From Paecilomyces variotii (lineage: Eukaryota), in the NCBI GenBank assembly GCA_004022145.1, contig RCNU01000007.1: a stretch of DNA of 64,000 bases; one strand, 5' to 3'. Position numbers and translations under genes: made by a program. Below the pieces are notes generated by a model. It saw only the letters and a list, made by a program, of their open reading frames with translations, was not told where the DNA came from and ran no database searches. Shown piece by piece: positions 1 to 29,270 of the stretch (the stretch's first letter is position 1; each line of letters starts with the position of its first letter).

Positions 1-1200
1 TCTTTATTATATAGTGTAATATATAGAGATCTTATTACTTTAAGATTATTTATTCTAGCCTTATTTCTAAGTCTACCCCTAATAGAGTATAATTAGTAAA
101 GTTTTACTTATATAGTATTAAATTGCTTTATAATTTATTTATTTTTTATACTTAATTATATTTTATAGCTTAAGGTCCTATATAATATCTTATATTATTC
201 TCCCTTATTAATGCCTTTCTTATATTATTACTACTTAAAGGTTCCTTATAGATAATATATCTTAAACTTAGTCTATTCTTTAGTTCTAATATTAAATAAT
301 ACTTATTTATTTACTAGAAGCTTTTATTTATATAGAGTAATATTATATTGCCTATTAAGAATATTAAATAAGATATTAAATAGTTTATTAACTTTTAAAT
401 ATTATAGTTTATATATATTTTTTTTATATACTTCTTTCTCTTCCTATTTAAGCTTTCTTCTACTATATTAGCTATAATACTTTATTATCTATATCTCTAA
501 TAAATATATTAGTATTTTTATATAAATAGTTAACTATCTTCTATTATGCCTTTTTTATAATATATAAGATTTACTTAACTTATCTCTAAATTGCCTTTTT
601 ATAATTTAAAGATATAGCTTATCTTCTAATAAAATACTATTAAATATTAGATTAAGATCTTCTCCCTTTTTAGAAATATAAGACTATTAGAGAAGTCTAT
701 ATATAAAAGTAATAGTTAGTAAAATTAAGATTAAGAAATATTAGACTTACTTTTTTAGCTTTATCTTTAAATTTTATATCTTATTTTTAATATTAATATT
801 TATTCTTATTTAATAGATTTTAGGCCCTAATAAATACCTTTAGTTAGCCTTTTATATTTTTACCTAATAACTTTTATATTTAAGGAATAACTCTAATATA
901 TACTATATCTCTTCTTATTTCTATTATTTCTTAATTGCTTAATAATAATAATATAGATAATTAGATTAAATAGATAATATCTATATTCTGTGTTTAAATC
1001 TATTAATAATTACTTACTTATTATTATTATAGTTAGAATTATAATAAATTAATATATTACTTTTATTACTGCTTATTTTAGGGTCTTTAATAAAGAAGTT
1101 ATTAGTATTAAAGTTAATATAATCTAAATCCTCTATAGTTATAATAATCTTATCTTAATCTTATTATCTAGAAGCTAAGAGTAATTATAAATATAATAAA

Positions 1201-2150
1201 GATTAAATCTCTTAGCCTGGCTAATATAACTCTAAGTATTAAATATTTTTACTTAGCTAATATAACTCTAAGCATTAGATATCTTTACCTAGCTAATATA
1301 ACTTTAAGTATTAAATATTTTTACCTAGCTAATATAACTCTAAGTATTAGATATCTTAGCTTAGCTAACTTAACTTTAAGTATAATAAGAGTTAAATCTC
1401 TTAGCCTAGCTAATATAACTCTAAGTATTAAATATTTTTACTTAGCCGATATAACTCTAAGCATTAAATATCTTAGCTTAGCTAACTTAACTCTAAGTAT
1501 AATAAAAGTTAGATCTCTTAGCCTAGTTAATATAACTCTAAGTATTAAATATCTTTACTTAGCCGATATAATTTTAAGTATTAAATATTTTAGCCTAGCC
1601 GACCTAACTCTAAGTATAATAAGAGTTAAATTTCTTAGCCTAGCTAATATAATTCTAAGTATTAAATATCTTTATTTAACTAATATAACTTTAAGCATTA
1701 GATATTTTAGCCTAGCTAATATAACTCTAAGCATTAAATATCTTTACCTGGCTAATATAACTCTAAGCATTAAATATTTTTATCTAGCTAATATAACTTT
1801 AAGCATTAGATTTCTTAGCCTAGTTAATATAACTTTAAATATTAAATATCTTTACTTAGCTAATATAACTCTAAGTATTAAATATCTTTACTTAGCTAAT
1901 ATAACTTTAAGTATTAGATCTCTTAGCTTAACTAATATAACTCTAAGTATAATAAGGATTAAATCTCCTAGCCTAGCTAATATAACTTTAAGTATTAAAT
2001 ATTCTTACTTAGCTAATATAACTCTAAGCATTAAATATCCTTATTTAGCTGATATAACTCTAAGTATTAAATATTTTAGCTTAGCTAACTTAACTCTAAG
2101 TATAATAAAAGTTAGATTTTACTTAGCCGACCTAACTGCAAGTATAAAGA
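1201..2150. repeat. Tandem array of 36-bp and 45-bp units (probably coding)
   Basis: Recurring aaatatctttacttagctaatataactctaagtatt and a 45-bp variant ending in taagtataataagagtt; both lengths are multiples of 3. Confidence 0.9.
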
Positions 2151-2659
2151 AGATTAAATATTCTGATTAGATTTATTAAAATAAGAGCTAATAGAATATA
2201 AAGAGATTAGAATTTCTTTAGAATATATTAGTTAATTTATTAGATTAGTTCTATTATTAGTTTATACTAGGAGAGAGCTAAAATTTTAATAGATAACCTC
2301 TTACTAGGCAATAATTAATCTTTATAATTATAAGAAATACTAGCTTATATATTATTTATCTTAAATATTAATTAAGCTTTATTAAAAGCCTTATTCTAAA
2401 CTAGTTTTATTTAAAAAGATTACTTTTATTAATCTCTAGTAAAAAGGTCTTTTATTTAATTTAAATTGCTATTATAATTAATTAATATTTTAAATAAAAT
2501 AATTATATCTATATTAGGGAATTTAGACTTTAAGATTATAAGTTTTATATTAGTAGGCCTTTTATTAGAGATATTATTAGTATATATATTTTTATAATCT
2601 AAAGGTTATACTAGTAATTATTAAATAAGGCTATTTTAATAGCTATTATTAGAAGAGAT

Positions 2660-3235
2660 CTATAATTTACTCTTATAAGGTAATTAGCTATCTTAATATA
2701 ATTTAATAATAGAAGAAATAGATAAAAGATTATATTAAATAAATTAGTTATAATTTAATAGTAGTAGTAACTCTTAAATAAAACTTATCTAATAATTATT
2801 AATAGATAGTATTTATATATTACTTATATAGGGCGATTTAGTATTTTAAAGTAACTTAATTATATAAGAAATTAATAGAAGATTAGATTAAATAGCTTAA
2901 CTATAATTTAATTGCGCTAATAATACTAGGAGAAAATAGCTTTAACTAGTAGTATTATAAGAGGTTTAAATACTATTCTTATTAAGCAATTTCTTATTTT
3001 AAATTAATTCGATTATTTAAGAAATTAATAAAAGATTATATTAATTAAACTGGTTATAATTTAATAGTATTAATAATTCTTAAATATAATTACTTTAATA
3101 GTTGCTATTAAAAGATATCTGCCTATTATTTATATAGGCCAATTTATTATATTAAAATAGCCTAGTTATAGAAGAAATAGATAAAGGACTAAATTAAATA
3201 AGCTAGTTGCAACTTAATAGCAATATAGGTCTTAA
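2660..3235. repeat. Degenerate 153-bp (51-codon) repeat, four units
   Basis: Motif gaaatWRatRRaRgaYtaNattaa recurs at 2715, 2868, 3021 and 3174, exactly 153 bp apart. Also present in copy 3 at ~23580-24155. Confidence 0.75.
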
Positions 3236-4980
3236 ATCTAAATATATATTCTTATTTAATTATTCTATAGATAAGACCTTTTTTATCTATTTTAAAGTTT
3301 AGAATATATATCTTTCCTTTAACTATAAATATACTAGAATATTCTCTTAGATTAGTAATAGGCTTATTCTATAAAAATATTTATTTTAAGTATATCTTTA
3401 TACTCCTATAATATCTAGAAGTATCCGATTATTTATAAATATATTATATACTTAAATAATCTATTAGCTATATAAGAGGGCTATAATTAATAGTAATATA
3501 TATTTCTCTATTTATATTAGTATATATAATACTAAAGTTATTTTTACCTTTTCTTTTTTAGATTAATTTTAAGATTATATTATATTACTTATATTCTAGA
3601 TATTTAAGGTCTAAGTAAGATTTAATAATATATTATATAGTAGCTTTAACTAAGATAGCTAAATATATACTTATAAGGCCTATACCTTTAATAATTCTTT
3701 AATAAAAAATATTCCTCTTTTAATAATAATACTAGCAGTAAGGACTATTAAACTAGTATAAGATAATATTAGCTAAGCTAAAACAGAATTAGAGTTAATA
3801 GCTATATTAAATAAGCTGCGGAGTATTTTATTCTATATTTCTCTATTAGAATTTTTATTAATAAAAGTTTAATCCTTCTGCTAGCAATACTTAAGTAAGA
3901 ATATATAGTATATTATAATCTAATATTCTAATAACCTGCAGATAAACCTAGAATTATTAACCTTAGCTTATTATAAACTCTCTTAGTAACCTACTAATAA
4001 TATAAATCCTATACCCGATATAAAACCCTAATTATAATAATCTTTACTAAGAGAACTTAATCTAGTAGTATTATATAGATAGGTAGGTTAAAGGCCTAAA
4101 TATTATAGAAAATTATTAGTGTAAATATAAAGATTAATAATAAGTTAACTAGGCTATAGAAGATAGCTAAGGGAAATTATTAAATAGGATAAAATTGTTA
4201 GAATTAAACCCATAATAGACTACAGATAAAAAAAAATATTTAATAGACTAAGGATTATTACTACTATAAAGGACCTTCCTCTTTTTATAAACTATTATAT
4301 CCTAAATAGTCTAGAATATCTTTTTAAAGAGAACTCTTTAGTAATAGCATTAGTAATAGCTCTAATAAAGATATAGAGACCTAGGCTTTAAAATTAATTA
4401 TAAAGAGGTATAGTAATCTCTTAGTATTATCTTAACTAGCTATCTTATTTTTTAAATACTACTCTCCTATTTATCCTATAATTCTTTAATATTAAAAATT
4501 TAATATAGTATCTTATAGGGGATATAGATAATCTATAAAATATAAGAATAAGAATAAATAGAATAAGGCTTAAAGAAAAAAATATAGATTAAAATATTAG
4601 CGGTAATAATAAGAGTAAGAATATAACTAAAATTAGTTCTTTATATTACTATTAGTACTATTTACCTATATCTGCTTTAAATCTTATATATTTATATAGG
4701 ATATATAATAGAATTTTAATAACTCTCCCCTATTAATTTATACTAATAATAATATCTTTAGTAATCTTAGCAGAGCGCTATAGAATATATCTTTACTTTC
4801 TAAATATATAGAATATAGAGAAGGAGATAATACTTAGAATTTTAGGCTATTTAATTTTAACAGTAATTAAGAGAATAAATATAATAATCTTAGCGCTAAT
4901 AATAATAATATAGATAATAGCTATAATATACTTATATAGATATTAGATAATAATATATTAATAATAGTTAATAATTAATA

Positions 4981-7900
4981 GAATTTATCTTATAAGTTTC
5001 TAGATAAGCTAAATATAGTAAATATTAAATAAGGGATATTAATATTAATATAGTAATAAATAAGCTATTACCTAGCTTAATAGATATTTTTAAAGCTAAG
5101 GAAGAAGTCTTTAAAAATAATAGCTATTATATACTTATAAAATAGTTAATAGAATAACTTATATAATATTATAGCTGTTTATCTTATATATAAATACTAT
5201 CTATATTTAAAGATAGTAATAGTAGCCTAATATTACTTTTATAAGTTATATAGTTAATATTATATAATATTCTTTCTTAAGAAAATATTTAAAAATATTT
5301 AAAAAGCTATAATTAAAATATTATCCTTCCCTTATTTTAATAATAGTAGCTTTTTAGCAGAATCTAGATTATATTTATTAGCAATTGCTAATTGCCTGCA
5401 GATACTATATTAAGCAGTAAGCTTATTAAGGATCTTTCTCTATATTATTAAAATCGTCTACCTCTATATATTAACCTAGAATAAAATATAATAATGCCTA
5501 AAGAACTATTTACTGTCTCTTTTAATATTAATAATATTATTAAATTTGCAAATAATTTAGCTATAGCCTATTAAGGATTTTATTAGATAATAGTTAAGTT
5601 ATCTATTAGTAGTCTAAAATAGTTACTTTATCTTAACCTAATTCTAGTAACCTTTTATAACCTAAAGACTAGTACCTTTTATTATATATATAGTTTAATC
5701 TATTAGATCTTATACCTCCCTATAGGCCGATTAAATAGGTTTCTAAATATAGAACTATTTATTATTTTCCTTAACCTTTATACTCTAAATTATAATAATT
5801 AAATTATTTTAGATAGTGAATATAGAATCTAAATAGATAAAATATTTATACTAGCTCTTTATAAAGCTTGCCTGGAATTAATTATCTAATACTTACCTGC
5901 TAGCGCAGAATATACTTAACTTTAAGGTATAATATACTTAGCAGAAGGATATTATTAAGAAACCTAATATTTATATATTTAATTATTATACTCTGCTCTT
6001 TAAAATAATAAGCTATTTAGCTTATAATAGTATATTCTTGCTAGAATCTATAAAAGATCCCTAATTATATTTAAGGGGCTAAAGTTATTATTAATAGCTA
6101 AGAATTTAAAGATATATATATAAAATAATACTTAGACTAAAGCACTTAGTAGATTCTTTAAATTATAAATATATATAGTTAATTAATAGTACTTAGAAAA
6201 GGAATATTATAATATTAGGAAAGAAGTTATTATAACTAGTTAAAACTATAATTTTGCTATTAATAATATAAAGATAGTAAAGTATTTATTTATTCTATTA
6301 TAGCGCTGTTATTATTAAAAAAGCTTCTTTATTTAGCTCTAAGAGGTTTTAAATAAGCTTATCTTATATTAAGAAGGTAACCGCATAGAATTAAACTATA
6401 ATATAATACCTTTTTTTAATATCTAAGAGTAGTATCTAAGGCTATAAATTATAATCTATATTTAATAGCAACTATTATCTAAGAATAATAATAATTATAA
6501 TAAAGATAATTAGTATATAACTACTAATAATAATAATTAGAATAAGACTATTAATAATAATAATAGTTATTATAAAGAATCTAAATTAAATAGTCCTAAT
6601 TCTAATTTTTTAAGGCAATTATTACTAGAAGATAATACCTCTATAATAGCTAAAATATTAGGAAATAATAAAAATAAGAATATAAGGTATAAATTACCCT
6701 AGAGGTTAAAGTTTTATTATAAAATACTCTTGCGAAATATAAAAAGTTTAATAATTAAACCCTATCTCTATTTTATCTTATAAGCTAATAGGCTATATTA
6801 TTATTAGTTTTATAATTCCTTTAAAAAGGTCTTTACAGTAAATAATTAGTATTTATTTGCTAATTGCATACTAGATATACTAGCTCTAGATTATAGTTTA
6901 ATCTATATATAAGAATATATTAGCTATGCAATTAATTATAATCCTATAGCTCTTTTTTAAGTATATTATTATTTTAAAAAGTATTATTATATAATAATTT
7001 AATATTGCTAGAAGTACTTATATAGCACTTAAGAGGAGTTTTATATTACTAGGACCTTATTTTATATTATTAATTATAAAATGCAAGTAATTAATATAGC
7101 CCAGGAATATTTAAAGCTTCTATTACTTATATTAATATTATCTAATTTATTATTATTAAATTATCTATTTCTATTTTTTACCTATTATATAGTTAATATC
7201 CTAGGTTTATATTAATAGAATGTAAATTATCTCTATTTAAGATTTAAGTTAGTTTATAATTTATAGCTCTATATATTAATATATTAAGAATATAGCTATA
7301 TAATAATAATATTTCTTTTATATCTTCTTTATATATTTAGGGGTTAAAGGAATTATATCTTCTAGTATAATAGTCTTTAGTTAAATTATTATATCTAACC
7401 TCTAAGAGAAAGTATAGACTAAGAATAGGTCTATAAGGGCTTAAGTATAGGGGAGATACTTAAATGCTATAGTTTTATATAGTTTCTAGATAAGTTTAAT
7501 TAAATAGCTATAATATTTTAACTTCTCTATTAAATAGTTATAATTTCTTTTAATATACTTTTAATAATATTAGTATATTATTAGTTTTATAAAGAAGTAA
7601 AAGGAGTATAATTAGATTATATTATAGTCTATAATATCTTTACCTGTATATTTAAGGTCCGGGCAGATTTTATATACTTAGCCTTACTTCTAGATTTATT
7701 AGTAGATATATATCTTTAGGTATTTAAGAAAGATGCCTTTAAGACAATAAGAAATATTATTAAGTGCTAAAAAATACTAGATAATAAAAAAATAAAAGAG
7801 GCTTATAATAGTAATATTCTATTAACTCTATATAAATTATATTTATTATTTAAAGATATTAATCTATTAGTATTTATATATATAGTAACTAACTTAAAGT

Positions 7901-8350
7901 ATAGAATCTATAATATTAAGGTTTTATTTAATTTCTTTTAAGGATAGAAAGCTAATAAAGATAATTAAGAATTAAAATAAGAGTACTAGAGTAAAAAACT
8001 ATATTATACCCTTTATAAATAATATAATATTATAATTATAGAGATCTATAGGCTTAGTTAAGCGCAGTAATAGCGGGCAATATTTAAATACTATTTTATT
8101 TATTTATATTAGGTATTGCTGTTTCTTAATAGTTAAATATTCTAGCCTAAATACTAGTTTAAAAAATTAATAACATAGATAACTACTTATAGAGATTTAT
8201 CTAGCTATTATAGGCATCGGAAGAATAGATAACTTAGAGAAAGAGCTAGGAATATTAAAGCTATAATTAATAATCTATTTTTTCTAATAATTATATCTTA
8301 TAATATGCTTTATCTTCTAATAACTAGATAAATACCTAGTAAGTATCTAA
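4981..8350 (+). pseudogene. RIP-inactivated large ORF (~1100 codons) of an uncharacterised fungal family; candidate rolling-circle initiator
   Basis: One frame gives coherent de-RIP readings: SFDIDSIIGFANDLAVARQG (5518), IPHLPVGRL, QHLPASAEH, AKNLK, YYDIGKE (6205), an acidic tract, LLRDIGSLT, QFYNSSKEVF (6805), SYGTREEFR (~7018-7044), GFMWFPDKFDW, AFRKDAF. Stops are TAA/TAG at CAA/CAG/CGA/TGG-compatible positions. Ends approximate; an upstream exon near 4750-4920 is possible. Confidence 0.7.
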
Positions 8351-11300
8351 TAGAACTACAGGTATAATTACTTCCTTTACTAATTAACCTTAATGCCTAT
8401 TTTAATACTATTAGCAATTCTACTCCTATTAGTCTTATCTCTTTTCCTTTTATTAGTATATTAGATAGGCTAATTATAAAATAGCTCTTTAAAAATATTT
8501 TTCCTTAATAATAGTTTAGGTTATTTATAAGAAAGAATTACTTAAGAAATTAAGATAAAATTTATATAGAAGTAGGATAGCTTACTAATAAATTACTTAA
8601 GATTATAAATAAGTAAAGAGCAGTTATATAAAAGAATATTTATATATTCTATTCTTATATAAATAAAGTTTTATTTTTAAAAAAATAGAAATAATTAGCT
8701 AATAATAATACTGTAAATTCTTCTATTATAGATATAGATCTTAAAGAAAATTTTAACCTAGAAAGCCTTAGGTAAAGATTAGCTTATATAATAATAAAGC
8801 AATAATATTATTATATAAGGTTTTATATAGTTAAGACTATAATAGACTTATATAATAAAAACCTTAATAAGCTAATAGAGTATTAAAAGAGTTTTAAATA
8901 AATTAAATAATCTAGAGATAAGTATAAGCTATATAAGGTATATAAGATATATAAGATAAAGAAATAAAGAGGTAAAGAGCTAAAATAGCAATTTAATAAA
9001 TTATTAAAACAGATTTGCAATAGCTAGAATAGATAGAATAAAATAGTTAATAAGGATTTTATAATATTAGAAAGTTCTTGTAAAAAGAAGTCTTTACTTA
9101 CTTTTAAATTTTTAGGGAATTTATTATCTATAAAGAGCTTAAAAATTAAGTATTAGTTAATATACTTACTAAAAGATATAGATAAAAATATTTATCTTAC
9201 TATTAGACCCTAATTAAATAGCTTTATATAATCTAGATATAATCCTATTAAAGATACCTTCTTAGAGATATAACTAAGTAGAAAGAGTAGTTATTTCTTA
9301 TATATATATAATACTATTTCTTATTATTTCTTAGTAATATATTAATATTTTAATATTCTATCTCTATTACTTCTATTATTATATAAGATATTACTTAATT
9401 AAAAAAAGGACTAGGTAATAAGAAGATTATAAGAAGAAATATTAATTCTAATAAGATATACTAGAACTATAAATACATTATATAGTATAAGTTAAAAACT
9501 TTTCTAAGCAGCCTATAATTAGAAGAAATAAATTATCCTATAAAAAAAGAGTATCTAACTAGAATATTATCTATTAAACTAGATTTTTCTACTATATAAA
9601 TAAAGTAGTATTTTTAGAGCTTAGATAGTATTTAGGGAGCTATTTTACTTAGAGCGCTTTCTATTTTCTTATTAATAATATCTATATATTCTAGCAGTAT
9701 TTTATATAGTTAAGGGAAGTAAGTTCTAGAGTAATATTCTAAGACTATATTAAAAGTAGTAAAGAGCTTAATAATATCTAAGATATATTAATTAGCTTTT
9801 TCCCAGATTAGCTTATTATAAATTATTCCTATATAGGTTATAAGTTTTTATATATAGAATAGGGGTTTAAAAGGCGCGCTATAATAGGCTATAGACTAGG
9901 AGAAGAGAAATTACTAAATTATATATAAACTTTACTAAACTATATTTATCCTTACTTAAGACTTATAATATTATTTTTATTATAGCAGGTAATAGTAATT
10001 ATAATAGAAGAAGCTATTTTAAAACTAGAGATAGCCGCTTAATTTAACAGTTATATAAAAAAAAAAGTTTATTTTAATATTTAAGTCCTATATAGGAATT
10101 AATATTATATTACTTAAGTTCTTAAGGTCTTTAAACTAAGAGGAGGTATAAATATAATAGGGCCAGATAAAGAGAATAAAGAGGATAAAGAGAATAAAGA
10201 GAATAAAAAAGAGAGATTAATAAGGGAAATATAGTTGCTAGTAATTTACTAATAAAATAATACTTTAATACTTCCTTAATCTTAAAGAATTAGTTCTTTT
10301 ATCTTAATTAGGCAAATAAAAGCGCAGGATAAGCCTGCTTAATTAAATATATATATGCTTAATTATAAAGCGCTTATTAAATATTTTAATATTATTAAGA
10401 TTATCTAGCAGTTAAATTAAAGTAAGCTAGCAGATAATATTAAGCTTAATTAATAAATAATAAAGTAGATCCCAACTCTAGATATATTAAGCCTCTATAT
10501 ATTAATTAGGTTTTTATATAGATACTTAAATACTTACCTAATAGATATTAAAAAGCTTATTAACTTAAATAATATAGCTATAACTAGTAGATTACTAGAT
10601 ATATATTTATTTAAGTAGGTATATAGTCTAATAGTAAAAGAAATAAATAAGAAACTAAATATTTAATCTATATAAGAAGCTTAATAGGTAAGAAGCAAAA
10701 TAAGATAATTTAATAGACTTTTATTCCTATATAGTTTAATAGTTTTAAAAAGAATATAATAAGAAAGAATCTTTAAAAGGAATATTTTATTTAATAGAGC
10801 TATTCCCGGCTATAGGTCTATATATAGGCTTAAAGACTTCTACTAATTTATTACTATTAAAGTATTTTATAATACTTTCTTCTTCCTTATCTAAAGATAA
10901 AGGCAGTCCTTAAAACTAGCTAAGTATATTTATTATATATAAAATATTACAATTAATAAAGTAAGATAGCTATAATAATTCTAACTCTAAGAAAGAGCTA
11001 ATAGAATATTTAGGAGTACTAAGATAGTTAGGCGCTAAAGAAACTAAATATAATATATCTCTTAAAGGATATTTATCTCTATTAATAAGTCCTTTATAAA
11101 CTATAAGAGAGAATATTAAACCCCTTAGTTAATAGCTATAAACTAAGTAAATATAATATAAATATTTATATCTCTAGTTATTATACTTAATTATATTAGT
11201 TTAATATATCTATTTAGCTAATAAGAAAAGCTAGAGATTAATAAGTCTAAGATATTTTAATGTTTATATTTATAGGAGGTATATATAACTATACTAGCTT

Positions 11301-12090
11301 AGTATATATCTTAAGCTAATAAGAGGACCTAAATAATAATAGGTTTAAAAAGTTCTAATTTATAATTTTATCTTAATTTAATAATCTAACTATAATAAAC
11401 TAGACTTTAATCTCTATACTATAAAGGAAAAAATAAGAGAAATAATATTATTATATAGGGGCGAGGAAATAATACTCTTATATAAAGATAAATAGGAAAG
11501 AATAAGATATTAGATTATATAGCTCTTATAGGGGGTAAGCTATAAATCTATTATATTCTGCTATTATATCCTCTATATAAACTAGATAATAGCTATAATA
11601 AGATATTACCTATATTAATCTATATAAAATTAATAAAGATAAGAAAAGAACTATAGATTAGTTTAGTTAGATATTTAGCTTAGCTTAAAACAGCTAAGGC
11701 ATTTAGATAAAGTTAAAGAATATAAGTAGCTAGTAGATTTTAGTATTAATTAATTCTTTAAATAATTTAATAATTATTACCTTTTTATATATTTTCTCAG
11801 AATCTTTAATTCTATAGTCCTAGATCTTTATAAAAGGTTAGCAGCTTATAGAGAGGGGAAAAGGTAGAGGAATAGGAGGCCTGAGAAGAACTATATAAAT
11901 ATATATATTTTATATAGACCTTTAAAAAATATTTAAAGAATATTAAATAGTAAAGTAATTATAGTTTAACCTTATTAATTTTATAATTTATAAGATTCTA
12001 TCTATTTTATTAATAAATATATATTCTTTTTAGTATTTAGATATTAAAATATTAATTAATTTTTATTAATATTTTTATTATTTATATTTA

Positions 12091-12195
12091 GGCCGCTCTA
12101 CTTAGTAAGCCGCTTTATTTAATAGTTAAGCCGCTTTACTTAATAAGCTATTTTGCTTAATAAACTGCTTTACTTAATAAGCCGCTCTACTTAAT
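12091..12195. repeat. Short ~18-bp repeats (aagccgctYtacttaat)
   Basis: Five to six adjacent copies; also at 33010-33115. Confidence 0.7.
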
Positions 12196-13114
12196 TAATA
12201 TAATTCTCTGCTGATTAAGTTATTTCTTAAGCTTTCTAATAATTATTAAATTAGTTTTATTTAACTACCTACTATGCTACTAAAAAAGCTTAAATTATCT
12301 AAAGATTTAATTAAGTAAAAGAGAAGAGTCTTACTAATAATTTATAATTTAAATAAAAATTAAATTCTATCTATATAAAAAGCAGTATTAACTTTTAAAG
12401 TTCCCTATTTAATACTTTAAGCATAACTATAAAGGCATTAGTTTCGCAATAATATATAAAATAACGCGATTATATTATCTAAATTATAGGAGGAATTGCT
12501 TATATAATAGATATTATTTATAGATTAATATAGAATAAGTCCCTAACTTATCTAGATTTAAGGAATAGTAAGTTTTTTTATAGACTAAAATAGCAAGGTT
12601 TTAGCTAGGCAAGAACTAGGCATTTATTTTTACTAGGTATTCTATAGCTAGAGGGGGATAGGCTATAAGAAATTATTAAGCACTGCTAACTAAGCTAAGC
12701 AAGATATATAGCTTAATATTTAATTTAAAGATTTAGTATATATCTTAAGATAGTAGATTATATAAATACCGCCTTTAAACCCCCTAGCTAGGCGCGTTAT
12801 ATATAGGATAATAAAGTAAAACCTATTATATAATCTAGACTAGTAGTTTAGTAGTATTTACGCCAGACCTCTGCCTTTTATATATAGGGAGATAATAATT
12901 AGCCTAAACTTATAAGACTTTAACCTTATAATTTTAAATTATTTAAAACTAATCCCTAGATTAGATTATCTTTTTTTATATCTAGATATATTATACTATG
13001 TATAAAACATATAGAAACACATTGATTTAAGGGAGGGGATAAACTAAAAAAAGAAAAAAAGATAAAATCTAAAGCTAGATTTAAACTAGTAACCTTTTTA
13101 TTTTAAAACTGCCC

Positions 13115-13270
13115 TGCAGCTAGTGCTACTATAGCTAGTGCTATTATAGCTAGTACTGCTATAGCTAGTACTATTAGTATAGCTAGTATTACTAGCGTAG
13201 CCGGTACTACTAGTATAGCTAATGCTGCTATAGCTAGTGCTGCTAGCATAGCTAGTGCTACTAATATAAG
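13115..13270 (+). repeat. 15/18-bp tandem repeats (agctagtgctactat), probably an Ala/Gly-rich coding tract
   Basis: Directly visible; a longer version lies at ~34485-34705. De-RIP reading gccggtgctgctgca = AGAAA. Confidence 0.75.
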
Positions 13271-15171
13271 TATAATAGAGTAAAGGAGTAAAAAAGTTAA
13301 TAAAGCAGAGGAGCTATATAAGTATAATAAAGCAGAGAAGCTAGCCTTTACTTTCTTAACTTAATATAAGAGATAGGGTAATAATATAGAATTAGCTCTA
13401 TTATAAATTATATATATAGGTTATTTTTAGTAATAAAGGATATGCCTAAGATAGTCTTAAGCATAGTGCTCTTAGGTATAAGATTATTCAGAATAGTCTT
13501 AGAGGCCCCCTTATAGCTGCGCTTCTAGAAAGTTTAAGAAATTTAGACAAAAACTAAGAGGAGTAAAAGAATTAATAGAATAGAGAAGTAAATAAAGCAG
13601 AGAAGCTAATAGAGCAGAGGAGCTAATAAAATAGAGGAGCTAATAAAGTAGAGGAGTAGAGGAGCTAATAATATACTCTGAAGAATATCTAATTGTCTAT
13701 ATATTACCTTATATATATTCTACTAATATCCTAGGATTATCTAATTATTATAGCCTATATAAGCTGCTAGAGCCTATTAATTAAAATATTAATTTCTATT
13801 ACTAAATAATAAGTAATATAAGACTAACTTATTTCCTTCTCTAATAGAGTAAAAGAATAGGCTAGGCTATTATTCTTAGAGCTATTAGAGATATATTATT
13901 AAAATAAATATTATACCTCTAATAATATAGGAAAGAAAAAAAAAAGCTAATAAATAAAAGCCTATATAATAAGTAAAAGCCAATATAATAAGCTAGGGGT
14001 TAAACTGGCCTATTATACTAAAGAGGAGAAAGAGGAAAAAAAAGAAAAAGAGGAGAAAATAAGGATAGAGATACCTTTTTATACCTAATAAGCGGGGTAT
14101 AAATCTTTTTCTTGCTATAAATCTAAAGGGGAAGAAATATAATTACTCTCTAAATAAATATAAATAAAAAAGATTTTAAATAGGAAGAAATATAAAGTAA
14201 GGGTAATAAATAATAATAGTTACTAATAGTAAGAAGAGGCCTAATAGTAATAAAAAGGCAATAAGAGAATATAGAAATATAAAGCTATAATAGAAGATAG
14301 GAAAGGGGAGAGAAAATAGGGAATTTAGTATAAGGATAGCTAGAATATAGTATTATAATTAATATTCTAAATAGATTAATAAGAAGCTAGAATTTTAGAT
14401 AGAAAAAAATATTCTAAAAGTAAGCTTTTATAATAATTAAAAATAATAAGCTTTAATTAGCTTATTTAGATATTAAATAAGCTCTTAATAGAATATTCTA
14501 TATTTTACTAATTATTATTATCCTCTTTATTATTATTTATAGCCTCTAATTCCTCTATATATAATATTATAGTATTTAAGATATTAAAAAAAGGGGTTAG
14601 AGGGGTAAAAGAGACTATATAAATAATCTAAGCATATAAATTATAGGTTAATATAAGAAGAAGCTATAAAATACCTATTTATATATTAGGATCTCTAATA
14701 GTCTATATTAACTCTCTATAAGTCTCTAGAACTATTTAGCCTATATTAAAGTTTTAGGTAATTAAATAGTACCTTAAATAAGATATTAGAGAGTATTTAT
14801 ATACAGGAGATAGCTATATAGTTTAAACTCTTTATAAACTCTAAATAGGAGAGATTTAACATAGCCTAGTCCAGTATTATACCTTAGGATTTATATATAT
14901 TAATAGCATATACTATTATAATAGGGAATTAGGTCTGTTAGTAATTAATATAATTATAAATAAACTTCTAGTAAGACTAAAGAATAAGAATAATTAAATA
15001 GCTATTATTATCTTAGCAAGAATATAGCCTCTAATTACTATTAAAGCAGACTAAAAGAGCTAATAATAAATCTTGCTAATAATTATTGCCCTAAACCTAT
15101 ATAATATTAAAAAGTATGCTAAAGGAGCTGTTTATTAACTCTTACTTTATCTAGATATTTTTTTTTAGTAT

Positions 15172-16020
15172 AATAAAGTTTTAGATTACTTAGTTTTAGA
15201 TTAATAAATAATTAACTAATATAAATTTCTAACTATTAAATTTCTTACTATTAGACTAGACTAAGTTTTAAATTAATAAATAATTAACTAATATAAATTT
15301 TTAACTACTAAATTTCTAATTATTAAATTTCTTATTATTAGACTAAACTAAGTTTTAGATTAATAAATAATTAACTAATATAAATTTTTAACTATTAAAT
15401 TTCTAATTACTAAATTTCCTATTATTAAACTAGACTAAGTTTTAGATTAATAAATAACTAATTAATATAAATTTTTAACTATTAAATTTCTAATTACTAA
15501 ATTTTTTATTACTAGATTAGACTAAGTTTTAAATTAATAAATAACTAATTAATATAAATTTTCGATTACTAAATTTCTAACTACTAAATTTCCTATTATT
15601 AAACTAGACTAAGTTTTAGATTAATAAATAACTAACTAATATAAATTTTTAACTATTAAATTTCTAATTACTAAATTTCTTATTATTAAATTAGACTAAG
15701 TTTTAGATTAATAAATAACTAACTAATATAAATTTTTAACTATTAAATTTCTAACTATTAAATTTTTTATTACTAGACTAGACTAAGTTTTAGATTAATA
15801 AATAACTAATTAATATAAATTTTCAACTACTAAATTTCTAACTATTAAATTTCCTACTATTAAACTAAACTAAGTTTTAGATTAATAAATAATCGACTAA
15901 TATAAATTTTTAACTACTAAATTTCCTATTACTAGACTAGACTAAGTTTTAAATTAATAAATAATTAACTAATATAAATTTTTAACTACTAAATTTCCGA
16001 CTACTAAATTTCTTACTAGT
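15172..16020. repeat. 87-bp tandem array (three internal 15-bp subunits), copy 1
   Basis: Unit actagactaagttttaRattaataaataactaactaatataaatttttaactactaaatttctaactactaaatttcYtattattag; starts at 15255 and 15342 are 87 bp apart; some 72-bp units lack one 15-mer. Confidence 0.95.
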
Positions 16021-16022
16021 AG

Positions 16023-17157
16023 TATTATAGCGCTAAATAGGCATTATAATAGCTATAAGATAGATTAGAGCTATAAAAGAAGATAGTAAAATAAAATTAC
16101 CGGTAGAACTATTAACTATCTATTATATTAAAAAGGGATTAAGAAATAAAAGATTTTAAAGATAAAAGTATTTAAATTTCTACCCTAAATTCTTTTTCCT
16201 TTTCTTCTCTAGCTTAAAGTTCTCTATTATATTGCCTTACTAGGTTAGATCTTTAATAAATTTAATTTAATTTACTTAAGTATAATATTATTTTAAGCTT
16301 ATTTTACCTATCTTATTTTATTTCTTAGGCTTCTTATTTAAGCATATTATACTATTTAAAAAGCCTATTTACTACTTAATAAAATATTAAATCCCTAAAT
16401 TAAGTTCTTATTATAGCAAAGCCTATTAATAAATCTAATTATTATTAAAATAACCCTAAAAATAGAAATAAATAGCCTAAATAAGAACCTGTAAAAGATA
16501 TTTATTATATCTTATACTACTAGAATAATAGGCTAAAGAATATAATATTAGATAAGTTCTATAAGAAGCTAAAAGCAGACCTTATAAAAATCTAGAGAAT
16601 CTAATATTCTACTATTAATTTCCTTTAAAATAAAATTTATAAATTAAAGAATATTAAGTACCTAAATAATTATAATATTAAATATAAAGATAATAATAAT
16701 AATCTTACCCGCTAGCTTTATTAGGAGAAATATTATATTAAAGATATTAAATAATAAGTTATAGAACTTATCTATAATTAAAAAAAATATAAGAAGGCTT
16801 TTACTAATATAGCCCTTTATCTTAATTATAAAAATACCTTAGGACCTATAGGTAATTAGCCTCAGTGCTCTATTAAATTACCTAACTCTCCCCTACTTAT
16901 TAATAGAAAAAATCTTAAATTTAAAGATTAGCTATTATAGATTAAGAATAAGCTTAAGGTAAATACTAACTATTATAGAAGTAAATATTTCTATATTATA
17001 TATATTTAAAGCTGTTTAGGTAAAAAAGCTATAGTATATATATTCTCTAAATTTTATAAAGATTCTAGCCTCTTCTTTTAAATAGCCGATAAGATTTTTA
17101 ACTATCTCTAAACTATTTTTTATAACCTAAATTATTATCAGAATATAAAGCGCTATA
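16023..17157 (+). mobile_element. Truncated Ty3/Gypsy relic (LTR-like 16023-16287, leader, gag fragment) embedded in the 87-bp array
   Basis: 16872-17156 de-RIPs to IKLPDPPLLTDGKDPKFEDWLLQMKNKL...VQSRLG...ADEIFDHL...DP, typical of fungal Gypsy Gag. Ends tattatagcgct...agcgtaata fit a RIPped TG...CA. Repeated at 17951-18903, 37512-44593 (split), 45436-46568 and 49334-50467. Confidence 0.7.
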
Positions 17158-17950
17158 ATAATTAGACTAGATTAAGTTTTAAATTAATAAATAACTAAGT
17201 AATATAAATTTTTAATTACTAAATTTTTAATTAAATAGAAGTTTTAAACTAATATATAGCCTAAAGGCTCTAGCCTTATATTATCTATTATTAGGATAAC
17301 TAGTCTAAGTATTTTATAATAGTTAACTTCGCAGCAGCTATATTAATTTAAGAATCTATAGGTATATCTCTAGTAATAGTTAAATACCGATATAAGTTAT
17401 AGATCTTCTTTAATTATAGCCTAATATTATAATCTAGCAGTCTGTTATTATAAAATTTATTAATTAGAAATAATTTAATAATTAAAAATTTATATTATTT
17501 AGTAATTTATTAATCCGAAATTTAATATTTAACTAAATAAGGCTTGGCAAACCCTACTAAAATTCTCGCCTAAATATTAACCCCTTATATCTCTACTAAA
17601 TTAGGTTAAATCTAGATGAAAATTAATTTATTTTATATATCTAATTCGACTCTATAATATATTAAAAATTTAGCTTAATTTAACTTTATTTTACCGAGAT
17701 ATAAGGGGATAAAGTTTTATTATTAAAAAATCCGAAATAAGAAGTAGCGCTAGCCTATTTCGATTTTTCTACTATAGCTTACTAATTAAGGCAAAATCTT
17801 TAAACCTTAATAACTTACGCTACAGTAGACCAATCTAAAAAAGGAATATATATTTATAATTCTTAGAACGAGCTCTATTAATTAGTATATAGAATAATAT
17901 TAAATTCTTAAAGGGGAAGTTTACTTATATACGTAATTTTGCCTTATAGA

Positions 17951-19696
17951 TTCTCTAGCTTAAAGTTCTCTATTATACTGCCTTACTAGGTTAAATCTTT
18001 AATAAATTTAATTTAGTTTACTTAAGCGTAATATTACTTTAAGCTTATTTTACTTATCTTATTTTATTTCCTAGGCTTTCTATTTAAGCGTATTATACTG
18101 CCTAAGAAGCCTACCTATTGCTTAATAAAATATTAAACCCCTAAATTAAGTTTTTACTATAATAAAGCTTACTAATAAATCTAATTACTATTAGAATAAC
18201 CTTAAAAATAAAGATAAATAGCCTAAATAAAAACCTGCGAAAGATACTTATTATATCTTATACTACTAGGATAATAAGCTAAAAAATATAATATTAGATA
18301 AGTTCTATAAGAAGCTAAAAGCAGACCCTATAAAAATCTAAAGAATCTAATATTCTATTATTAATTTTCTCTAAAATAAAATTTATAAATTAGAGAATAT
18401 TAAGCACTTAAATAACTATAATATTAAATATAAAGATAATAATAATAACCTTGCCCGCTAGCTTTACCAGGAGAAATATTATATTAAAGATATTAAATAA
18501 TAAGTTATAGAACTTATCTATAATTAAGAAGAATATAAAGAGGCTTTTACTAATATAACTCTTTATTTTAATTATAAAAATACCCTAGGACTTATAGGCA
18601 ATTAGCCCTAGTGCTTTATTAAATTACTTAACTTTCCCCTGCTTATTAATAGAAAAGATTTTAAATTTAAAAATTAGCTATTATAGATTAAGAATAAGCT
18701 TAAGATAAATATTAACTATTATAGAAGTAAATATCTCTATATTATATATATTTAAAGCCGCCTGGGTAAAAAAGCTATAGTATATATATTCTCTAGATTT
18801 TATAAAGATTTTAGCCTTCCTTTTTAAACAGCTAATAAGATCTTTAATTATTTCTAAGCTATTTTCTATAACTTAAATTATTATTAGAATATAAAGCGCT
18901 ATAATAATTAAACTAGATTAAGTTTTAAATTAATAAATAACTAAGTAATATAAATTTTTAACTACTAAATTTTTAATTAAATAGAAGTTTTAAATTAATA
19001 TATAGCTTAAAGGCTTTAACCCTATATTATTTATTATTAAGATAACTAGTCTAAGTATTTTATAATAGTTAATTTTACAGCAGCTATATTAACTTAAGAA
19101 TTTATAGATATATCTTTAATAATAGTTAAATACTAATATAAGTTATAGATTTTCTTTAATTATAGCTTAATATTATAATCTAATAATCTATTATTATAAG
19201 ATTTATTAATTAGAAATAATTTAGTAGTTGAAAATTTATATTATTTAATAATTTATTAATCTGAAATTTAGTATCTTACTAGATAAGGCTTAGCAAACTT
19301 TATTAAAATTCTCGCCTAAACATTAACCCCTTATATCTCTACTAAATTAGGTTAGATCTAGATAGAAATTAATTTATTTTATATATCTAATTTAACTCTA
19401 TAATATATTAAAAATTTAGCTTAATTTAACTTTATTTTACTAAGATATAAGGGGATAAAGTTTTATTATTGAAAAATCCGAAATAAGAAGCGGCGCTAGC
19501 CTATTTTAATTTTTTTACTATGGCTTACTAATTGAGGCAAAATCTTTAAACCTTAATAACTTATACTACAGTAGACCAATCTAAAAAAGGAATATATATT
19601 TATAATCCTTAGAACGAGCTCTATCGATTAGTATATAGAATAATATTAAATTCCTAAAGGGGAAGTTCACTTATATACGTGATTTTACCTTATAGA
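17951..19696 (-). mobile_element. Large element, copy 2 (terminal ~1.75 kb only)
   Basis: Begins at sequence homologous to ~16205 (ttctctagcttaaagttctc) and runs colinearly to the same terminus ...ccttataga at 19696. Confidence 0.85.
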
Positions 19697-22344
19697 CTCC
19701 CGCGAATTTACTGATAAAGTAAAGATATTATATAGACTAAATTGCCTTAGGAAGATATACTTTATTATATATACTATATAGCTTAAGTAGTCTGCTAACA
19801 GGAACTAGTTTAGTATATCTAATAAAGAGTTAGCTAATAATTAATAGCTATAAGGCATTAATAAGATATTATATATATAAGACTAATTAAGACTAAAGTA
19901 AATATAATACTGTATATTTAGGGAAATATATATAAAAAATATATATTAACAATAGAATTTAATGCTATTTAGCTTATTAAAGATTAGAGCGCCTTAAGTA
20001 TAGCTAGGGCTCTTATTAGAGCTAAGCTATTATTCTCTTATTTATTTTAGATTTAATTCTAGCTTAGATAATAAGATTCTTAATTATACTATAAGCTAAG
20101 AGACCTCTAATAGTAGCTATAGACTTACTATTAAGCTAATAAAATATCCTCTTTTTCTAGTCTATATAATAGAAAATATTATAGTCTAATAATAATCTTA
20201 GTATTATTTCTTCCGCATTTTATTTTATAAGATCTAGAACTTCTATCTATAGCGCATACTTTAATGCTAAAATACTTAGATTAAGATATTAAGCTATTAT
20301 ACCTAAGATACTGCTGGCTAAAATACTTAGCTTAATAGAGTTAAGATTATAGATTATAGCATATTTATACCTATAGGTAAGAATATATTAAGGTATTTAA
20401 TATAGGAAATAGATTTAATTAAATAGTATATAAATTATAAAGTTAATAGTCTATAATTTTATTAGCTATAATAAGTTAAAAGTATAAGATAGAATATACC
20501 TCTAATTATATATAGATAGGCCCTATATTTATATTATTTAAAGATAATTAATACTATAATTATATAAAAGTAGTAAATAGCTTCTAAGTCTTCTAATTAT
20601 CTTTTAAATAAAGCTTATAAAAAATATCTATAAGTATTAAATCTAATAGAGTCGCAAGGGCTTTAATATTATAATTATATATAATATTATTGCTTTATTA
20701 ACCTAGTAAGATAATCTAGTACTATTTAAACTTAGAGGATAAGGTTAACTATTTTAGCAGATACTGCCTTAGGGTTAATATATATAGATAATATTAAGAT
20801 ATTATTAAGTAGGTTATTTAATTATTATAAGATAGCTTTAATATAATTTAAATACGCTTAGCTAATTACTTACCTAGCTTTTTTATTAAATACTTTCTTT
20901 TCTTCTCTATTTTATTACTGATCAAATTATTAATAACTAGGATAAACTCTATATAAAGCTTTACCTTTAATATTAAGTTTTAGAGGCCCTAAAGTATATA
21001 GAGAGTTAAAAAGACTTAAATATATTATAGCTAGTATAAAGGACTAAATATAAGCTAATTATTTTAATATAAGTGCTTATATAAAAGAGAAGACTAGACT
21101 AAAGTCTTCTAACTTTAATTATATAATAAATAATAAAACTACTATCTTTATTATATAGTGCAATATATAAAGATTCTATTACTTTAAGATTATTTATTCT
21201 AGCCTTATTCTTAAGTCTGCCCCTAATAAGATATAATTAGTAAGATTTTATTTATATAATATTAGATTGCTTTATAATTTATTTATTCTCTATACTTAAT
21301 TATATCTTATAGCTTAAGGTCTTATATAATATCTTATATTATCCCCCCTTATTAGTACCTTTTCTATATTACTATTACTTAAAGGTTCTCTATAGATAAT
21401 ATATCTTAAACTTAGCCTACTCTTTAATTCTAATATTAAATAATATTTGCTTATTTATTAGAAGCTTTTATTTATATAGAGTAATATTATATTGCCTATT
21501 AGAAATATTAAATAGGGTATTAAATAGTTTATTAACTCTTAAATACTATAGTTTATATATATTTTCTTTATATACTTCTTTCTCTTCTTATTTAGGCTTT
21601 CTTCTATTATATTAGCTATAATACTTTATTATCTATATTCTTAATAGATATATTAATATTCCTATATAAATAATTAGCTATCTTCTATTATACCTTCCTT
21701 ATAATATATAAGATTTACCTAACTTATCTCTAAATTACCTTTTTATAATTTAGAGATATAGCTTATCTCTTAATAAAATACTATTAAATATTAGATTAAG
21801 ATCTTCTCTCTTTTTAAAAATATAAGACTATTAGAGAAGTCTATATATAAAAATAATAATTAATAAAATTAAGATTAAGAGATATTAAATTTACTTTTTT
21901 AACTTTATCTTTAAATTTTATATCTTATCTTTAATATTAATATTTATTCTTATTTAATAGATTCTAGGCCCTAATAAATGCCTTTAATTAGCTTTTTATA
22001 TTTTTACCTAATAATTTCTATATTTAAGGAATAACTCTAATACACACTATATTTCTTTTTATTCTTATTATTTCCTAATTACCTAGTAATAATAATATAG
22101 ATAATTAGATTAAGTAAGCAATATTTATATTCTGTATTTAAACCTATTAATAACTACTTACTTATTATTATTGCAGTTAGAATTATAATAGATTAATATA
22201 TTACTTTTATTACTACTTATTTTAAGGTCTTTAATAAAAAAATTATTAATATTAAAGTTAATATAATCTAAATTCTCTATAGTTATAATAACCTTATCTT
22301 AATCCTATTATCTAGGAGTTAAGAGTAATTATAAATATAATAAA

Positions 22345-23069
22345 AATTAGATCTCTTAGCCTAGCTAATATAACTTTAAGCATTAAATATTCTTACTTAG
22401 TTAATATAACTTTAAGTATTAAATATTTTTACCTAGCTAATATAACTCTAAGTATTAGATATTTTTACTTAGCTAATATAACTTTAAGCATTAAATATTC
22501 TAGCCTAGCTAATCTAACTTTAAGTATAATAAAAGTTAGATTTCTTAGCCTAGCTAATATAACTCTAAGCATTAGATATTTTTACTTAGTTAATATAACT
22601 CTAAGCATTAGATATTCTAGCTTAGCTAATTTAACTCTAAATATAATAAAAGTTAAATCTCCTAGCCTAGCCGATATAACTCTAAGTATTAAATATTTTT
22701 ATTTAGCTAATATAACTCTAAGCATTAAATCTCCTAGCCTAGCTAATATAACTCTAAGTATTAGATATTTTTATTTAGCTAATATAACTCTAAGCATTAA
22801 ATATCTTTACTTAGCTAATATAACTTTAAGCGTCAGATCTCTTAGCTTAGCTAATATAACTCTAAGTATAATAAAGATTAAATCTCCTAGCTTAGCTAAT
22901 ATAACTTTAAGCGTTAGATATTCTTATTTAGCTAATATAACTTTAAGCATTAGATATTCTTACCTAGCTAATATAACTTTAAGTATTAAATATCTTAGCT
23001 TAGCTAACCTAACTTTAAATATAATAAAAATTAGATCTTACTTAGCTCACCTAACTATAAGCATAAAGA
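22345..23069. repeat. 36/45-bp tandem array in copy 3 (225 bp shorter)
   Basis: Same units; the offset between copies changes from 21144 to 20919 across the array. Confidence 0.9.
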
Positions 23070-28800: not shown

Positions 28801-29270
28801 ATAGCAACTAACTTAAAGTATAGAATCTATAATATTAAGATTCTATTTAATTTTTTCTAGAGATAAAAAGCTAGTAAAGATAATTAAGAATTAAAGCAAA
28901 AGTATTAAAATAAAAAATTATATTATACCCTCTATAAGTAATATAATACTATAATTATAAAGATCTATAAGCTTAATTAAGCGCGGCAATAGCGGGCAAT
29001 ACTTAAATACCGCTTTATTTATTTATATTAGGTATTGCTATTTCTTAATAGTTAAATATTCTGGCTTAAATACTAGTCTAAAAAGTTAATAATATAAATA
29101 ATTACCTATAAAAATCTATCTAGTTATTATAGGCATCGAAGAGATAAGTAATTTAGAAAAAAAGTTAGAAATACTAAAGCTATAATTAATAATCTATTCC
29201 TTCTAATAATTATACTTTATAATATGCTTTATCTCTTAATAATTAAATAAATACCTAGTAAGTATCTAAT
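25900..29270 (+). pseudogene. Second copy of the RIP-inactivated large ORF
   Basis: Same sequence at offset 20919 (SFD motif at 26437), with independent RIP changes. Confidence 0.7.

What the first reader, a model, noticed from the sequence alone, without database searches (positions are those of the whole stretch)
4981..8350. Frame-preserved ~1100-codon relic ORF with motif order reminiscent of Rep_trans-type initiators
Seen: one + strand frame is kept for over 3 kb in both long copies, with only RIP-type stops. It reconstructs to SFDIDS-GFA-LAVARQG, QHLPAS, AKNLK, YYDIGKE (6205), QFYNSSKE (6805) and SYGTREEFR (~7020). From memory these motifs occur in unannotated ascomycete hypothetical proteins; I have not verified this by search. 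Established: Rep_trans (PF02486, pT181 RepC/D-type) non-HUH rolling-circle initiators have, in order, RxDxAxD, a catalytic Y(N/D)K and RxE. Inference: DIGKE, YNSSK and REEFR could be the equivalents, making this the element's transposase and pointing to a non-HUH eukaryotic rolling-circle transposon. This functional assignment is speculative.
Basis: partly seen in the sequence, partly recalled or inferred. Interest (0 to 1): 0.82.

Follow-up and report, generated by a model that had tools for sequence, protein, structure and literature searches.

The report
Dead gene of telomere-linked fungal element
This is a mutation-riddled remnant of a large gene whose intact, never-described relatives sit in discrete DNA units at fungal chromosome ends and may cut DNA the way bacterial plasmid replication starters do.

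Summary
Window 5461-8791 (+, frame of 4981) and its twin at 26380-29535 are RIP-killed copies of one gene. A Paecilomyces variotii hypothetical protein (P0002, 1217 aa) aligns collinearly without frameshift (E 1e-140).

The family (about 950-1430 aa; named members are all Eurotiomycetes) has no Pfam domain and no Foldseek match. In metagenome contigs the gene lies in discrete units. One exact 10,020-bp unit has a fixed 5' end joined to several different flanks and a 3' end of TTAGGG repeats. In 8 of 58 locus clusters telomere repeats lie downstream on the gene strand, and never the other way.

The parts
5461..8791 (+). Relic ORF, copy A: RIP-inactivated gene of the P0002-like family (aligned to P0002 residues 159-1149 up to 8595; the profile match runs on to about 8791)
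   Evidence: tblastn E 1e-140, collinear, no frameshift. HMMER profile of the X-read translations: top hit 1.7e-184, best stretch profile positions 284-1099.
26380..29535 (+). Relic ORF, copy B (same gene in the second long repeat copy)
   Evidence: tblastn E 8e-135. The two X-read translations are 82% identical.
5518..5535 (+). SFNINN = RIP-mutated SFDIDS motif (first strand; candidate metal-ligand Asp)
   Evidence: In the family D180 is 47/47, D182 47/47 and S183 47/47 metagenome clusters.
6205..6225 (+). YYNIRKE = RIP-mutated (Y/F)xDIGKE motif (candidate equivalent of Rep_trans DxAxD)
   Evidence: D409 is 51/52, G/A411 51/52, E413 39/52.
6805..6828 (+). xFYNSFKK = RIP-mutated QFYNSSKE motif with the invariant tyrosine (candidate nucleophile)
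   Evidence: Y559 is 44/44 in A2 and 57/57 clusters; K563 is 54/57.
7021..7044 (+). YSTxEEFY = RIP-mutated YGTREEFR motif (candidate RxE strand)
   Evidence: R632 is 58/58 and E634 58/58.
1..19696 (+). Long repeat copy A that carries the relic; the limits of the element proper inside it were not determined
   Evidence: Self-BLAST.
21145..38286 (+). Long repeat copy B (continues at 44229 after an inserted retrotransposon relic)
   Evidence: Self-BLAST.

Best explanation
The stretch is one of two RIP-destroyed copies of a gene for an undescribed Pezizomycotina protein family (about 950-1430 aa, no Pfam domain).

Shown: intact relatives lie in discrete DNA units with a fixed 5' terminus (TTGAAGCT... 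or TTGACATG...). In several lineages the gene is transcribed toward a chromosome end, and TTAGGG repeats lie 1.4-7.5 kb downstream. In the 10,020-bp unit the TTAGGG repeats form the unit's own 3' terminus. That unit occurs joined to several different flanks, to a true telomere, and head-to-tail behind a short telomere tract.

Inferred: the N-terminal half of the protein is a Rep_trans/TBP-like crescent sheet. It would bind a metal through Asp on the first strand (D180/D182), D409 and E634, and use Y559 as nucleophile (P0002 numbering).

Proposed mechanism, inferred and not shown: the protein nicks the top strand at the unit's 5' boundary and stays bound to the 5' phosphate through the tyrosine. 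It then joins that end to a free 3'-OH at a chromosome end (telomeric overhang or eroded end). The unit's own terminal TTAGGG tract then seeds a new telomere.

My odds: relic of this family 0.97; discrete telomere-linked unit 0.8; Rep_trans-like nickase 0.5-0.6; the end-joining mechanism 0.3.
For: Relic and family:
- 101 representatives at E<=1e-3, 48 at <=1e-10.
- 16 proteins, the named ones all Eurotiomycete 'hypothetical'.

Mobility and telomeres:
- An exact 10,020-bp unit is shared by L063-L068 with different left flanks, including nested truncations of one flank in L064, L065 and L067. L068 runs into a terminal TTAGGG array. L063 shows unit end, short telomere tract, then unit start.
- 13 of 80 loci (8 of 58 clusters; 8 of 41 clusters with at least 1.4 kb downstream) hold TTAGGG x2 or more. 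All are downstream on the gene strand; 0 are upstream or CCCTAA.
- Two other groups share 4.1-4.7-kb units at 92-96% identity in different flanks.
- Left termini TTGAAGCT or TTGACATG lie 1.57-1.92 kb upstream in 15 of the 16 loci that hold either word upstream, of 67 examined; L023's word lies at -430 and L017's TTGACATG at -18.

Fold:
- AF2 models have pLDDT 87.9/pTM 0.88 and pLDDT 79.6/pTM 0.80.
- The alignment starts put the FDIDS Asp on D46/D9, if ungapped.
- Residues conserved in all or all but one cluster: D180, D182, D409, Y559, R632, E634. They parallel D46, D142, Y191, R212, E214 of Carr 2016 (passages).
Against: - Foldseek finds nothing in the PDB or BFVD (best E 0.61, 0.92, 0.044).
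- Pfam on 44 members at E<=10 gives no Rep_trans.
- hhalign of the family against a 7-sequence Rep_trans profile gives probability 0.13%.
- I had no coordinates, so residue equivalences rest on range starts and motif order. About 250 residues of insertion must be assumed.
- Only 8 of 41 clusters reach a telomere. Group 2 units end in ...CCCTA with no telomere tract.
- No terminal hairpin stands out.
- The junction variety comes from a set of similarly named metagenome records.
- The window itself shows no telomere repeat and no recognisable termini.
Confidence: 0.5

Rival explanations
1. A telomere-linked gene family that spreads among chromosome ends by subtelomeric recombination or break-induced replication, as yeast Y' elements do (recalled). 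The protein has some other role (end protection, recombination, regulation) and is not a nickase. The Rep_trans likeness is chance or convergence.
Against: The 5' terminus is exact to the base at every junction of the 10,020-bp unit. Recombination would not fix it there. Units also occur in flanks where no telomere repeat lies in the DNA held: groups 2 and 3 and L002, 10 kb each side. The near-invariant D/D/D/Y/R/E set suggests an enzyme.
Confidence: 0.3
2. A non-autonomous telomeric retroelement copied by a reverse transcriptase supplied in trans, for example by neighbouring telomere-inserted retrotransposons. The large protein would be a Gag-like or accessory factor.
For: The architecture (telomere repeats at the 3' end, gene pointing to the chromosome end) resembles endonuclease-less Penelope-like elements (recalled; only a search listing and abstracts seen). 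An RVT_1 ORF (E 1e-32) lies just beyond the interstitial telomere tract in L064.
Against: tblastn with the two RT sequences at hand found no RT on the gene strand in any of 80 loci. The 10,020-bp unit has no further ORF of 150 aa or more besides the OrsD-domain ORF. The 5' end is fixed rather than variably truncated. No poly(A) was seen at the ends read.
Confidence: 0.08
3. A pseudogene of an ordinary single-copy host gene that happened to be duplicated and RIP-mutated; not mobile.
For: The window shows only two copies inside one large duplication.
Against: The distribution is patchy: 16 proteins in 5.8 billion clusters by word search, one P. variotii record. Exact and near-exact units occur in different flanks.
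Confidence: 0.04

Closest known systems
Rep_trans (PF02486) rolling-circle initiators and relaxases: pT181 RepC/RepD, RepSTK1; archaeal Rep-Arvir
   Same: The order of conserved residues on successive strands is the same: Asp on the first strand, DxA/GxD/E, a Tyr strand followed by K and E, then RxE. Among the rows listed, these are the only ones that span the sheet-rich part of both models. The archaeal relatives were likewise found by structure only (TM 0.49, rmsd 4.47 A to 4CWC; PMC13107129 passages).
   Different: Three to four times larger, with about 250 residues inserted and a 400-residue C-terminal half of unknown fold. There is no HMM or profile-profile signal. It is eukaryotic and chromosomal, whereas that paper says Rep_trans 'appear to be restricted to bacteria'. 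R140 and R189 are replaced (F/Y and Q). K lies at +4, not +2.
Yeast Y' elements and fungal telomere-linked helicase (TLH) genes (features recalled)
   Same: Subtelomeric, with one large ORF. Copies lie next to the telomere or head-to-tail with short telomere tracts between them.
   Different: No helicase domain: Pfam finds 0 families in 17 of 18 members. The fold is unrelated to helicases by Foldseek.
Telomere-targeted retrotransposons: MoTeR/FoTeR, endonuclease-less Penelope-like elements/Terminons, HeT-A/TART
   Same: They live at chromosome ends and are bounded by telomere repeats (FoTeRs: abstract of PMC12857005; the others recalled or seen as listings).
   Different: No reverse transcriptase in the protein or in the 10-kb unit. 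The 5' end is fixed.
Helitrons and Replitrons (eukaryotic HUH rolling-circle transposons)
   Same: Eukaryotic elements thought to move through a tyrosine nickase, with no target duplication seen (Replitron abstract).
   Different: No HUH or helicase domain, no Foldseek hit to HUH folds, and no significant 3' hairpin.

Membership tests
Unnamed P0002-like fungal family (KAJ9292425.1 and relatives) | Full-length collinear similarity including the FDIDS, AKNLK, DIGKE, QFYN..KE, GTREE and WEHTR motifs | tested here: met
   tblastn E 1e-140. Profile search 1.7e-184. Consensus.
Rep_trans (PF02486) | Match to the Pfam model at or above its gathering score | tested here: not met
   0 of 44 members hit PF02486 even at E<=10. 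The X-read window translations give 0 families.
Rep_trans (PF02486) | Crescent, TBP-like 11-strand sheet of the catalytic domain | tested here: inconclusive
Rep_trans (PF02486) | Catalytic Tyr on strand 10 with flanking basic residues and Glu on the next helix (R189, Y191, K193, E196) | tested here: inconclusive
   Y559 is invariant (44/44; 57/57). K563 is 54/57, E564 42/57, Q557 56/57, on a strand followed by a helix in both models. The spacing differs and the equivalence was not superposed.
Rep_trans (PF02486) | Three carboxylate metal ligands on separate strands (D46, D142, E214) | tested here: inconclusive
   D180/D182 are 47/47, D409 51/52, E634 58/58, on three separate predicted strands in the right order. 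Spatial clustering was not checked.
Rep_trans (PF02486) | Profile-profile sequence relation | tested here: not met
   hhalign probability 0.13%, against a narrow 7-sequence profile.
Rep_trans (PF02486) | Metal-dependent nicking with a covalent 5'-phosphotyrosine link | not testable with these tools
   Needs biochemistry.
Helitron/HUH rolling-circle transposons | HUH Rep domain plus Pif1-type helicase | tested here: not met
   No Pfam domain in 18 or 44 members. No Foldseek hit.
Telomeric retrotransposons (MoTeR/FoTeR, Penelope-like) | Element-encoded reverse transcriptase | tested here: not met
   No RVT in 17 of 18 members; P0010's tail is a fused Gypsy-like RT. The 10-kb unit has only the family ORF and an OrsD-domain ORF.
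Y'/TLH telomere-linked helicase elements | Helicase (DEAD/RecQ) domain | tested here: not met

The most novel reading that the evidence does not exclude
These are the first eukaryotic mobile elements driven by a Rep_trans/TBP-fold tyrosine nickase. They would form a third branch of that superfamily, beside the bacterial one and the newly found archaeal one. They would be DNA elements that attach their nicked 5' end to the 3'-OH of chromosome ends and bring their own telomere seed, so they would both parasitise and heal telomeres without reverse transcription.
Probability: 0.3. Interest if true: 0.95.

Novelty: categorically new. Interest (0 to 1): 0.8.

Why it matters
Known eukaryotic mobile elements use DDE transposases, reverse transcriptases, tyrosine recombinases or HUH nickases. 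This family fits none of them by Pfam or Foldseek, yet it forms discrete units spread through many soil-fungal contigs and several Eurotiomycete genomes.

If the Rep_trans-like reading holds, an enzyme class stated in 2026 to be confined to prokaryotic replicons (PMC13107129, passages) also exists in fungi. It would also give a DNA-based route for adding sequence to chromosome ends.

Even if that reading fails, a widespread telomere-linked gene family with a confident but unmatched fold is a direct lead for fungal telomere biology. It also helps explain what some RIP-degraded AT-rich blocks are made of.

Tried and rejected
- Whole genome: none is held for this window, so copy number and chromosomal position of the window could not be checked.
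I then scanned only chosen frames.
- Pfam on the X-read relic: 0 families.
- PDB sequence search with the family profile: best E 0.3, chance rows.
- Foldseek against the PDB and BFVD: nothing at E<=0.001.
- ESM Atlas, named clusters: no usable hit.
- hhalign against Rep_trans: probability 0.13%.
I used plasmid records instead.
- Terminal hairpins: z from -0.1 to -2.45 in 5 of 6 ends and +0.6 in one; not convincing.
- Left-terminus words in the window: 2 hits per copy against 3.9 expected by chance; uninformative.
- Telomere repeats or RIP-degenerate TTARRR x3 in the window: none.
- De-RIP consensus of the two copies: removes only 6 of 96 stops, since both copies are saturated.
- Sequencing runs: 2 of 11 listed runs hold 0.82-0.88 of the words, both with one coded organism label, possibly the source itself.
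- Dimer prediction of the catalytic half: never ran because the queue was full.
- Earlier findings of this scan: none.
- Literature: searches found no paper on this family or on eukaryotic Rep_trans. Supplements were not opened.

Full report
**1. What the window is.** The whole 64-kb window has 14-26% G+C. TpA/ApT is 1.41 and (CpA+TpG)/(ApC+GpT) is 0.24. It holds two long direct copies: A at 1 to about 19,696 and B from 21,145. The block 1443-12199 matches 22362-33118 at 89.7%. The copies differ there by 1102 transitions, 10 transversions and 9 gap columns each. This is the signature of repeat-induced point mutation (RIP) run to saturation in a fungal repeat block.

**2. The observation.**
- In 4981-8350 the named frame has 96 stops in 1123 codons (60 TAA, 36 TAG, no TGA). 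The other five frames have 128-177.
- The frame stays poorest or near-poorest in stops from about 5100 to 9000 in both copies.
- No ORF of 60 aa or more survives.
- A two-copy de-RIP consensus removes only 6 stops, so composition alone is weak evidence.

Homology decides the matter. A profile of the two translations read with X at stops (A1) was searched against 1.84 billion representatives. It found 101 proteins at E<=1e-3, 48 at <=1e-10 and 16 at <=1e-30. The best is P0002 at 1.7e-184. P0002 is KAJ9292425.1, a hypothetical protein of Paecilomyces variotii.

Residues 159-1149 match window 5461-8595, with 364/1052 identical and E 1e-140. Copy B is 26380-29535 with E 8e-135. Of the 84 stops in copy A, 26 align to Q, 20 to W, 15 to R, 9 to gaps and 14 to other residues. 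By a rough codon map, 366 of 620 mismatches are what C>T or G>A changes would give.

**3. The family.**
- Word-index search with P0002 found 16 proteins. The named ones come from Aspergillus oryzae RIB40, A. arachidicola, Blastomyces percursus, Coccidioides posadasii and P. variotii, all 'hypothetical' or unnamed, with no precomputed Pfam domain. A sixth named member, from Emmonsiellopsis, is in the cluster look-up.
- Pfam finds nothing in 17 of 18 members. P0010 has a sub-threshold RVT_1 tail, which is a fused Gypsy-like RT.
- Pfam also finds nothing recurrent in 44 members at E<=10.
- The distribution is patchy, unlike a housekeeping gene.

**4. Genomic behaviour of intact relatives.** A scan of metagenome contigs found 162 relatives. 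80 loci were kept, with the gene on +. They fall into 58 clusters at 95% identity or more over at least 1 kb.

- (a) L063-L068 share an exact 10,020-bp unit.
  - Its left end is TTGAAGCTCG... to the base at every junction.
  - The DNA before it differs. In L064, L065 and L067 it is one flank cut back by 0, 19 and 31 bases. L066 and L068 have other flanks. In L063 it is a short telomere tract.
  - Its right end is ...GGCGAAGGG(TTAGGG)2. In L068 this runs into a long TTAGGG array at the contig end.
  - Beyond the interstitial tract in L064 lies a minus-strand ORF with RVT_1 (E 1e-32). A telomere-inserted retrotransposon there would mean that the tract once was a telomere.
- (b) 13 of 80 loci (8 of 58 clusters; 8 of the 41 clusters with at least 1.4 kb downstream) hold two or more perfect telomere repeats.
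  - All are TTAGGG on the gene strand, 1.4-7.5 kb downstream. Seven are at a contig end.
  - None are upstream or in the CCCTAA sense.
- (c) Two other groups share 4.1-4.7-kb units at 92-96% identity in different flanks, without visible target duplication.
- (d) Left termini TTGAAGCT or TTGACATG lie 1.57-1.92 kb upstream of the match in 15 of the 16 loci that hold either word upstream, out of 67 loci examined. In L023 the word lies at -430 and in L017 at -18.
- (e) The 10-kb unit also carries an OrsD-domain ORF (PF12013, E 3.7e-14), which recurs near some relatives. tblastn with the two RT sequences at hand found no RT on the gene strand in any locus.

These are therefore discrete, repeatedly relocated units with a strong link to chromosome ends.

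**5. Fold and the Rep_trans question.**

AF2 models:
- P0116 (960 aa, 77-sequence alignment): pLDDT 87.9, pTM 0.88.
- P0013 (696 aa, 68 sequences): pLDDT 79.6, pTM 0.80.

Search results:
- Foldseek finds nothing in the PDB (best E 0.61 and 0.92) or in BFVD (best E 0.044).
- VIA-align against 48,161 representative chains lists mostly helical proteins. No listed row other than the Rep_trans chains spans the sheet-rich stretch in this way.
- The PDB holds only these two Rep_trans clusters. Both pre-named targets are thus in the top 22 of 48,161, although Z lies in the range the tool calls common.

What Carr et al. 2016 say (PMC4797284, passages read):
- The fold is an 11-strand crescent sheet.
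- The metal is held by D46 (strand 1), D142 (strand 6, RxDxAxD) and E214 (strand 11, RxE).
- Y191 is on strand 10, with R189 and K193. E196 is on the next helix.
- I read these same motifs in pT181 RepC and in a 7-sequence alignment.

How the fungal family compares:
- The predicted strands bear, in the same order: FDIDS (first strand), DxG/AxE, QxYxxxKE (strand then helix) and RxE.
- The starts of all three structural alignments put the second Asp of FDIDS on D46/D9, if the first 7-8 positions are ungapped.
- Conservation in 58 independent metagenome clusters:

| Residue (P0002 numbering) | Conserved in |
|---|---|
| D180 | 47/47 |
| D182 | 47/47 |
| D409 | 51/52 |
| G/A411 | 51/52 |
| E413 | 39/52 (Q in 12) |
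| Y559 | 57/57 |
| K563 | 54/57 |
| R632 | 58/58 |
| E634 | 58/58 |

- The figures are similar in the 44-protein alignment.

Evidence against: there is no Pfam or hhalign signal (probability 0.13%). Large insertions must be assumed. I could not superpose coordinates. I put a Rep_trans-like nickase domain at 0.5-0.6.

**6. Mechanism proposed (inferred).** The model has four steps.
- The protein makes a site-specific nick at the unit's 5' boundary.
- A tyrosine-linked 5' end forms.
- That end is transferred to a free 3'-OH at a chromosome end.
- The unit's own TTAGGG tract seeds a new telomere.

This would explain four observations: the base-exact 5' end joined to variably cut-back flanks or to telomere repeats, the constant orientation, the head-to-tail copy, and the lack of RT. 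Rivals are Y'-like recombinational spread with an unrelated protein function, and trans-mobilised retroelements.

**7. [quoted passage not shown] It adds archaeal relatives found only by structure (PMC13107129, passages). Searches found no paper on this fungal family, its locus tags or eukaryotic Rep_trans. FoTeRs (abstract) and Replitrons (abstract) are RT and HUH elements respectively. Subscription journals and Repbase were not searchable.

**8. Verdict.** The window's copies are dead, and their termini and any telomere link could not be recognised in the RIP-degraded DNA. They do, however, lead to an undescribed, widespread, telomere-linked element family with an unmatched fold and a plausible Rep_trans-like active site.

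Noticed in passing
window 38287-44228, with 60195-62762 inverted and 62772-64000: RIP-degraded Gypsy-like retrotransposon. The X-read frame 39901-41700 hits RVT_1 (E 5.6e-6, below the cut-off). It appears inserted into the 1746-bp unit of copy B, which resumes at 44229. A second, inverted copy lies at 60195-62762. This serves as a positive control that Pfam can still see RIP relics.
   Followed up: partly
window 16205-17950, 17951-19696, 44229-45387, 45618-47363, 49516-51261: A 1746-bp unit occurs head-to-tail with a constant 3' end (...CCTTATAGA). The next copy starts at different depths (1746, 1977 or about 3900 bp), which suggests 5'-truncated copies with one fixed end. No telomere-like tract is seen at these joints.
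   Followed up: partly
window 1095-2186 and 22275-23060; 2635-3217 and 23554-24136; 15048-16200, 36450-37690, 48287-49285: Tandem arrays of 36-bp, 153-bp and 87-bp units lie inside both long copies, upstream and downstream of the relic ORF. Their role is unknown.
   Followed up: no
window 12302-14101 (-), 51000-52799 (+): Other frames are poor in stops, suggesting more relic coding regions. Pfam on the X-read translations found nothing.
   Followed up: partly
L068 9406-11190 (also L044, L055): A second ORF of the 10,020-bp unit (595 aa) has an OrsD domain (PF12013, E 3.7e-14) and a Cys-rich C-terminal part. Weaker matches lie near the family gene in L008, L011, L024/26, L037/41 and L074/75.
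   Followed up: partly
L064 11298-14249 (-): A reverse-transcriptase ORF (RVT_1, E 1e-32) points toward the centromere and lies directly beyond the interstitial (TTAGGG)2 at the end of the 10-kb unit. It looks like a telomere-targeted retrotransposon.
   Followed up: partly
L071 6597-6773: The first 173 bp of the group-2 unit is duplicated in tandem ahead of the full unit, so there are two successive TTGACAT... termini.
   Followed up: no
starts of L005, L006, L014, L017, L059: Contigs break 1.5-2 kb upstream of the gene in G-rich, telomere-like tandem repeats such as (T)TAGG variants. This fits head-to-tail placement behind another G-rich terminal region.
   Followed up: no
window 6226-6342: The relic keeps about 39 codons, including a WRRCC-like stretch (LLxRCYY). 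These are present in most family members but absent from the P0002 gene model, which may have lost them to a mis-called intron.
   Followed up: no
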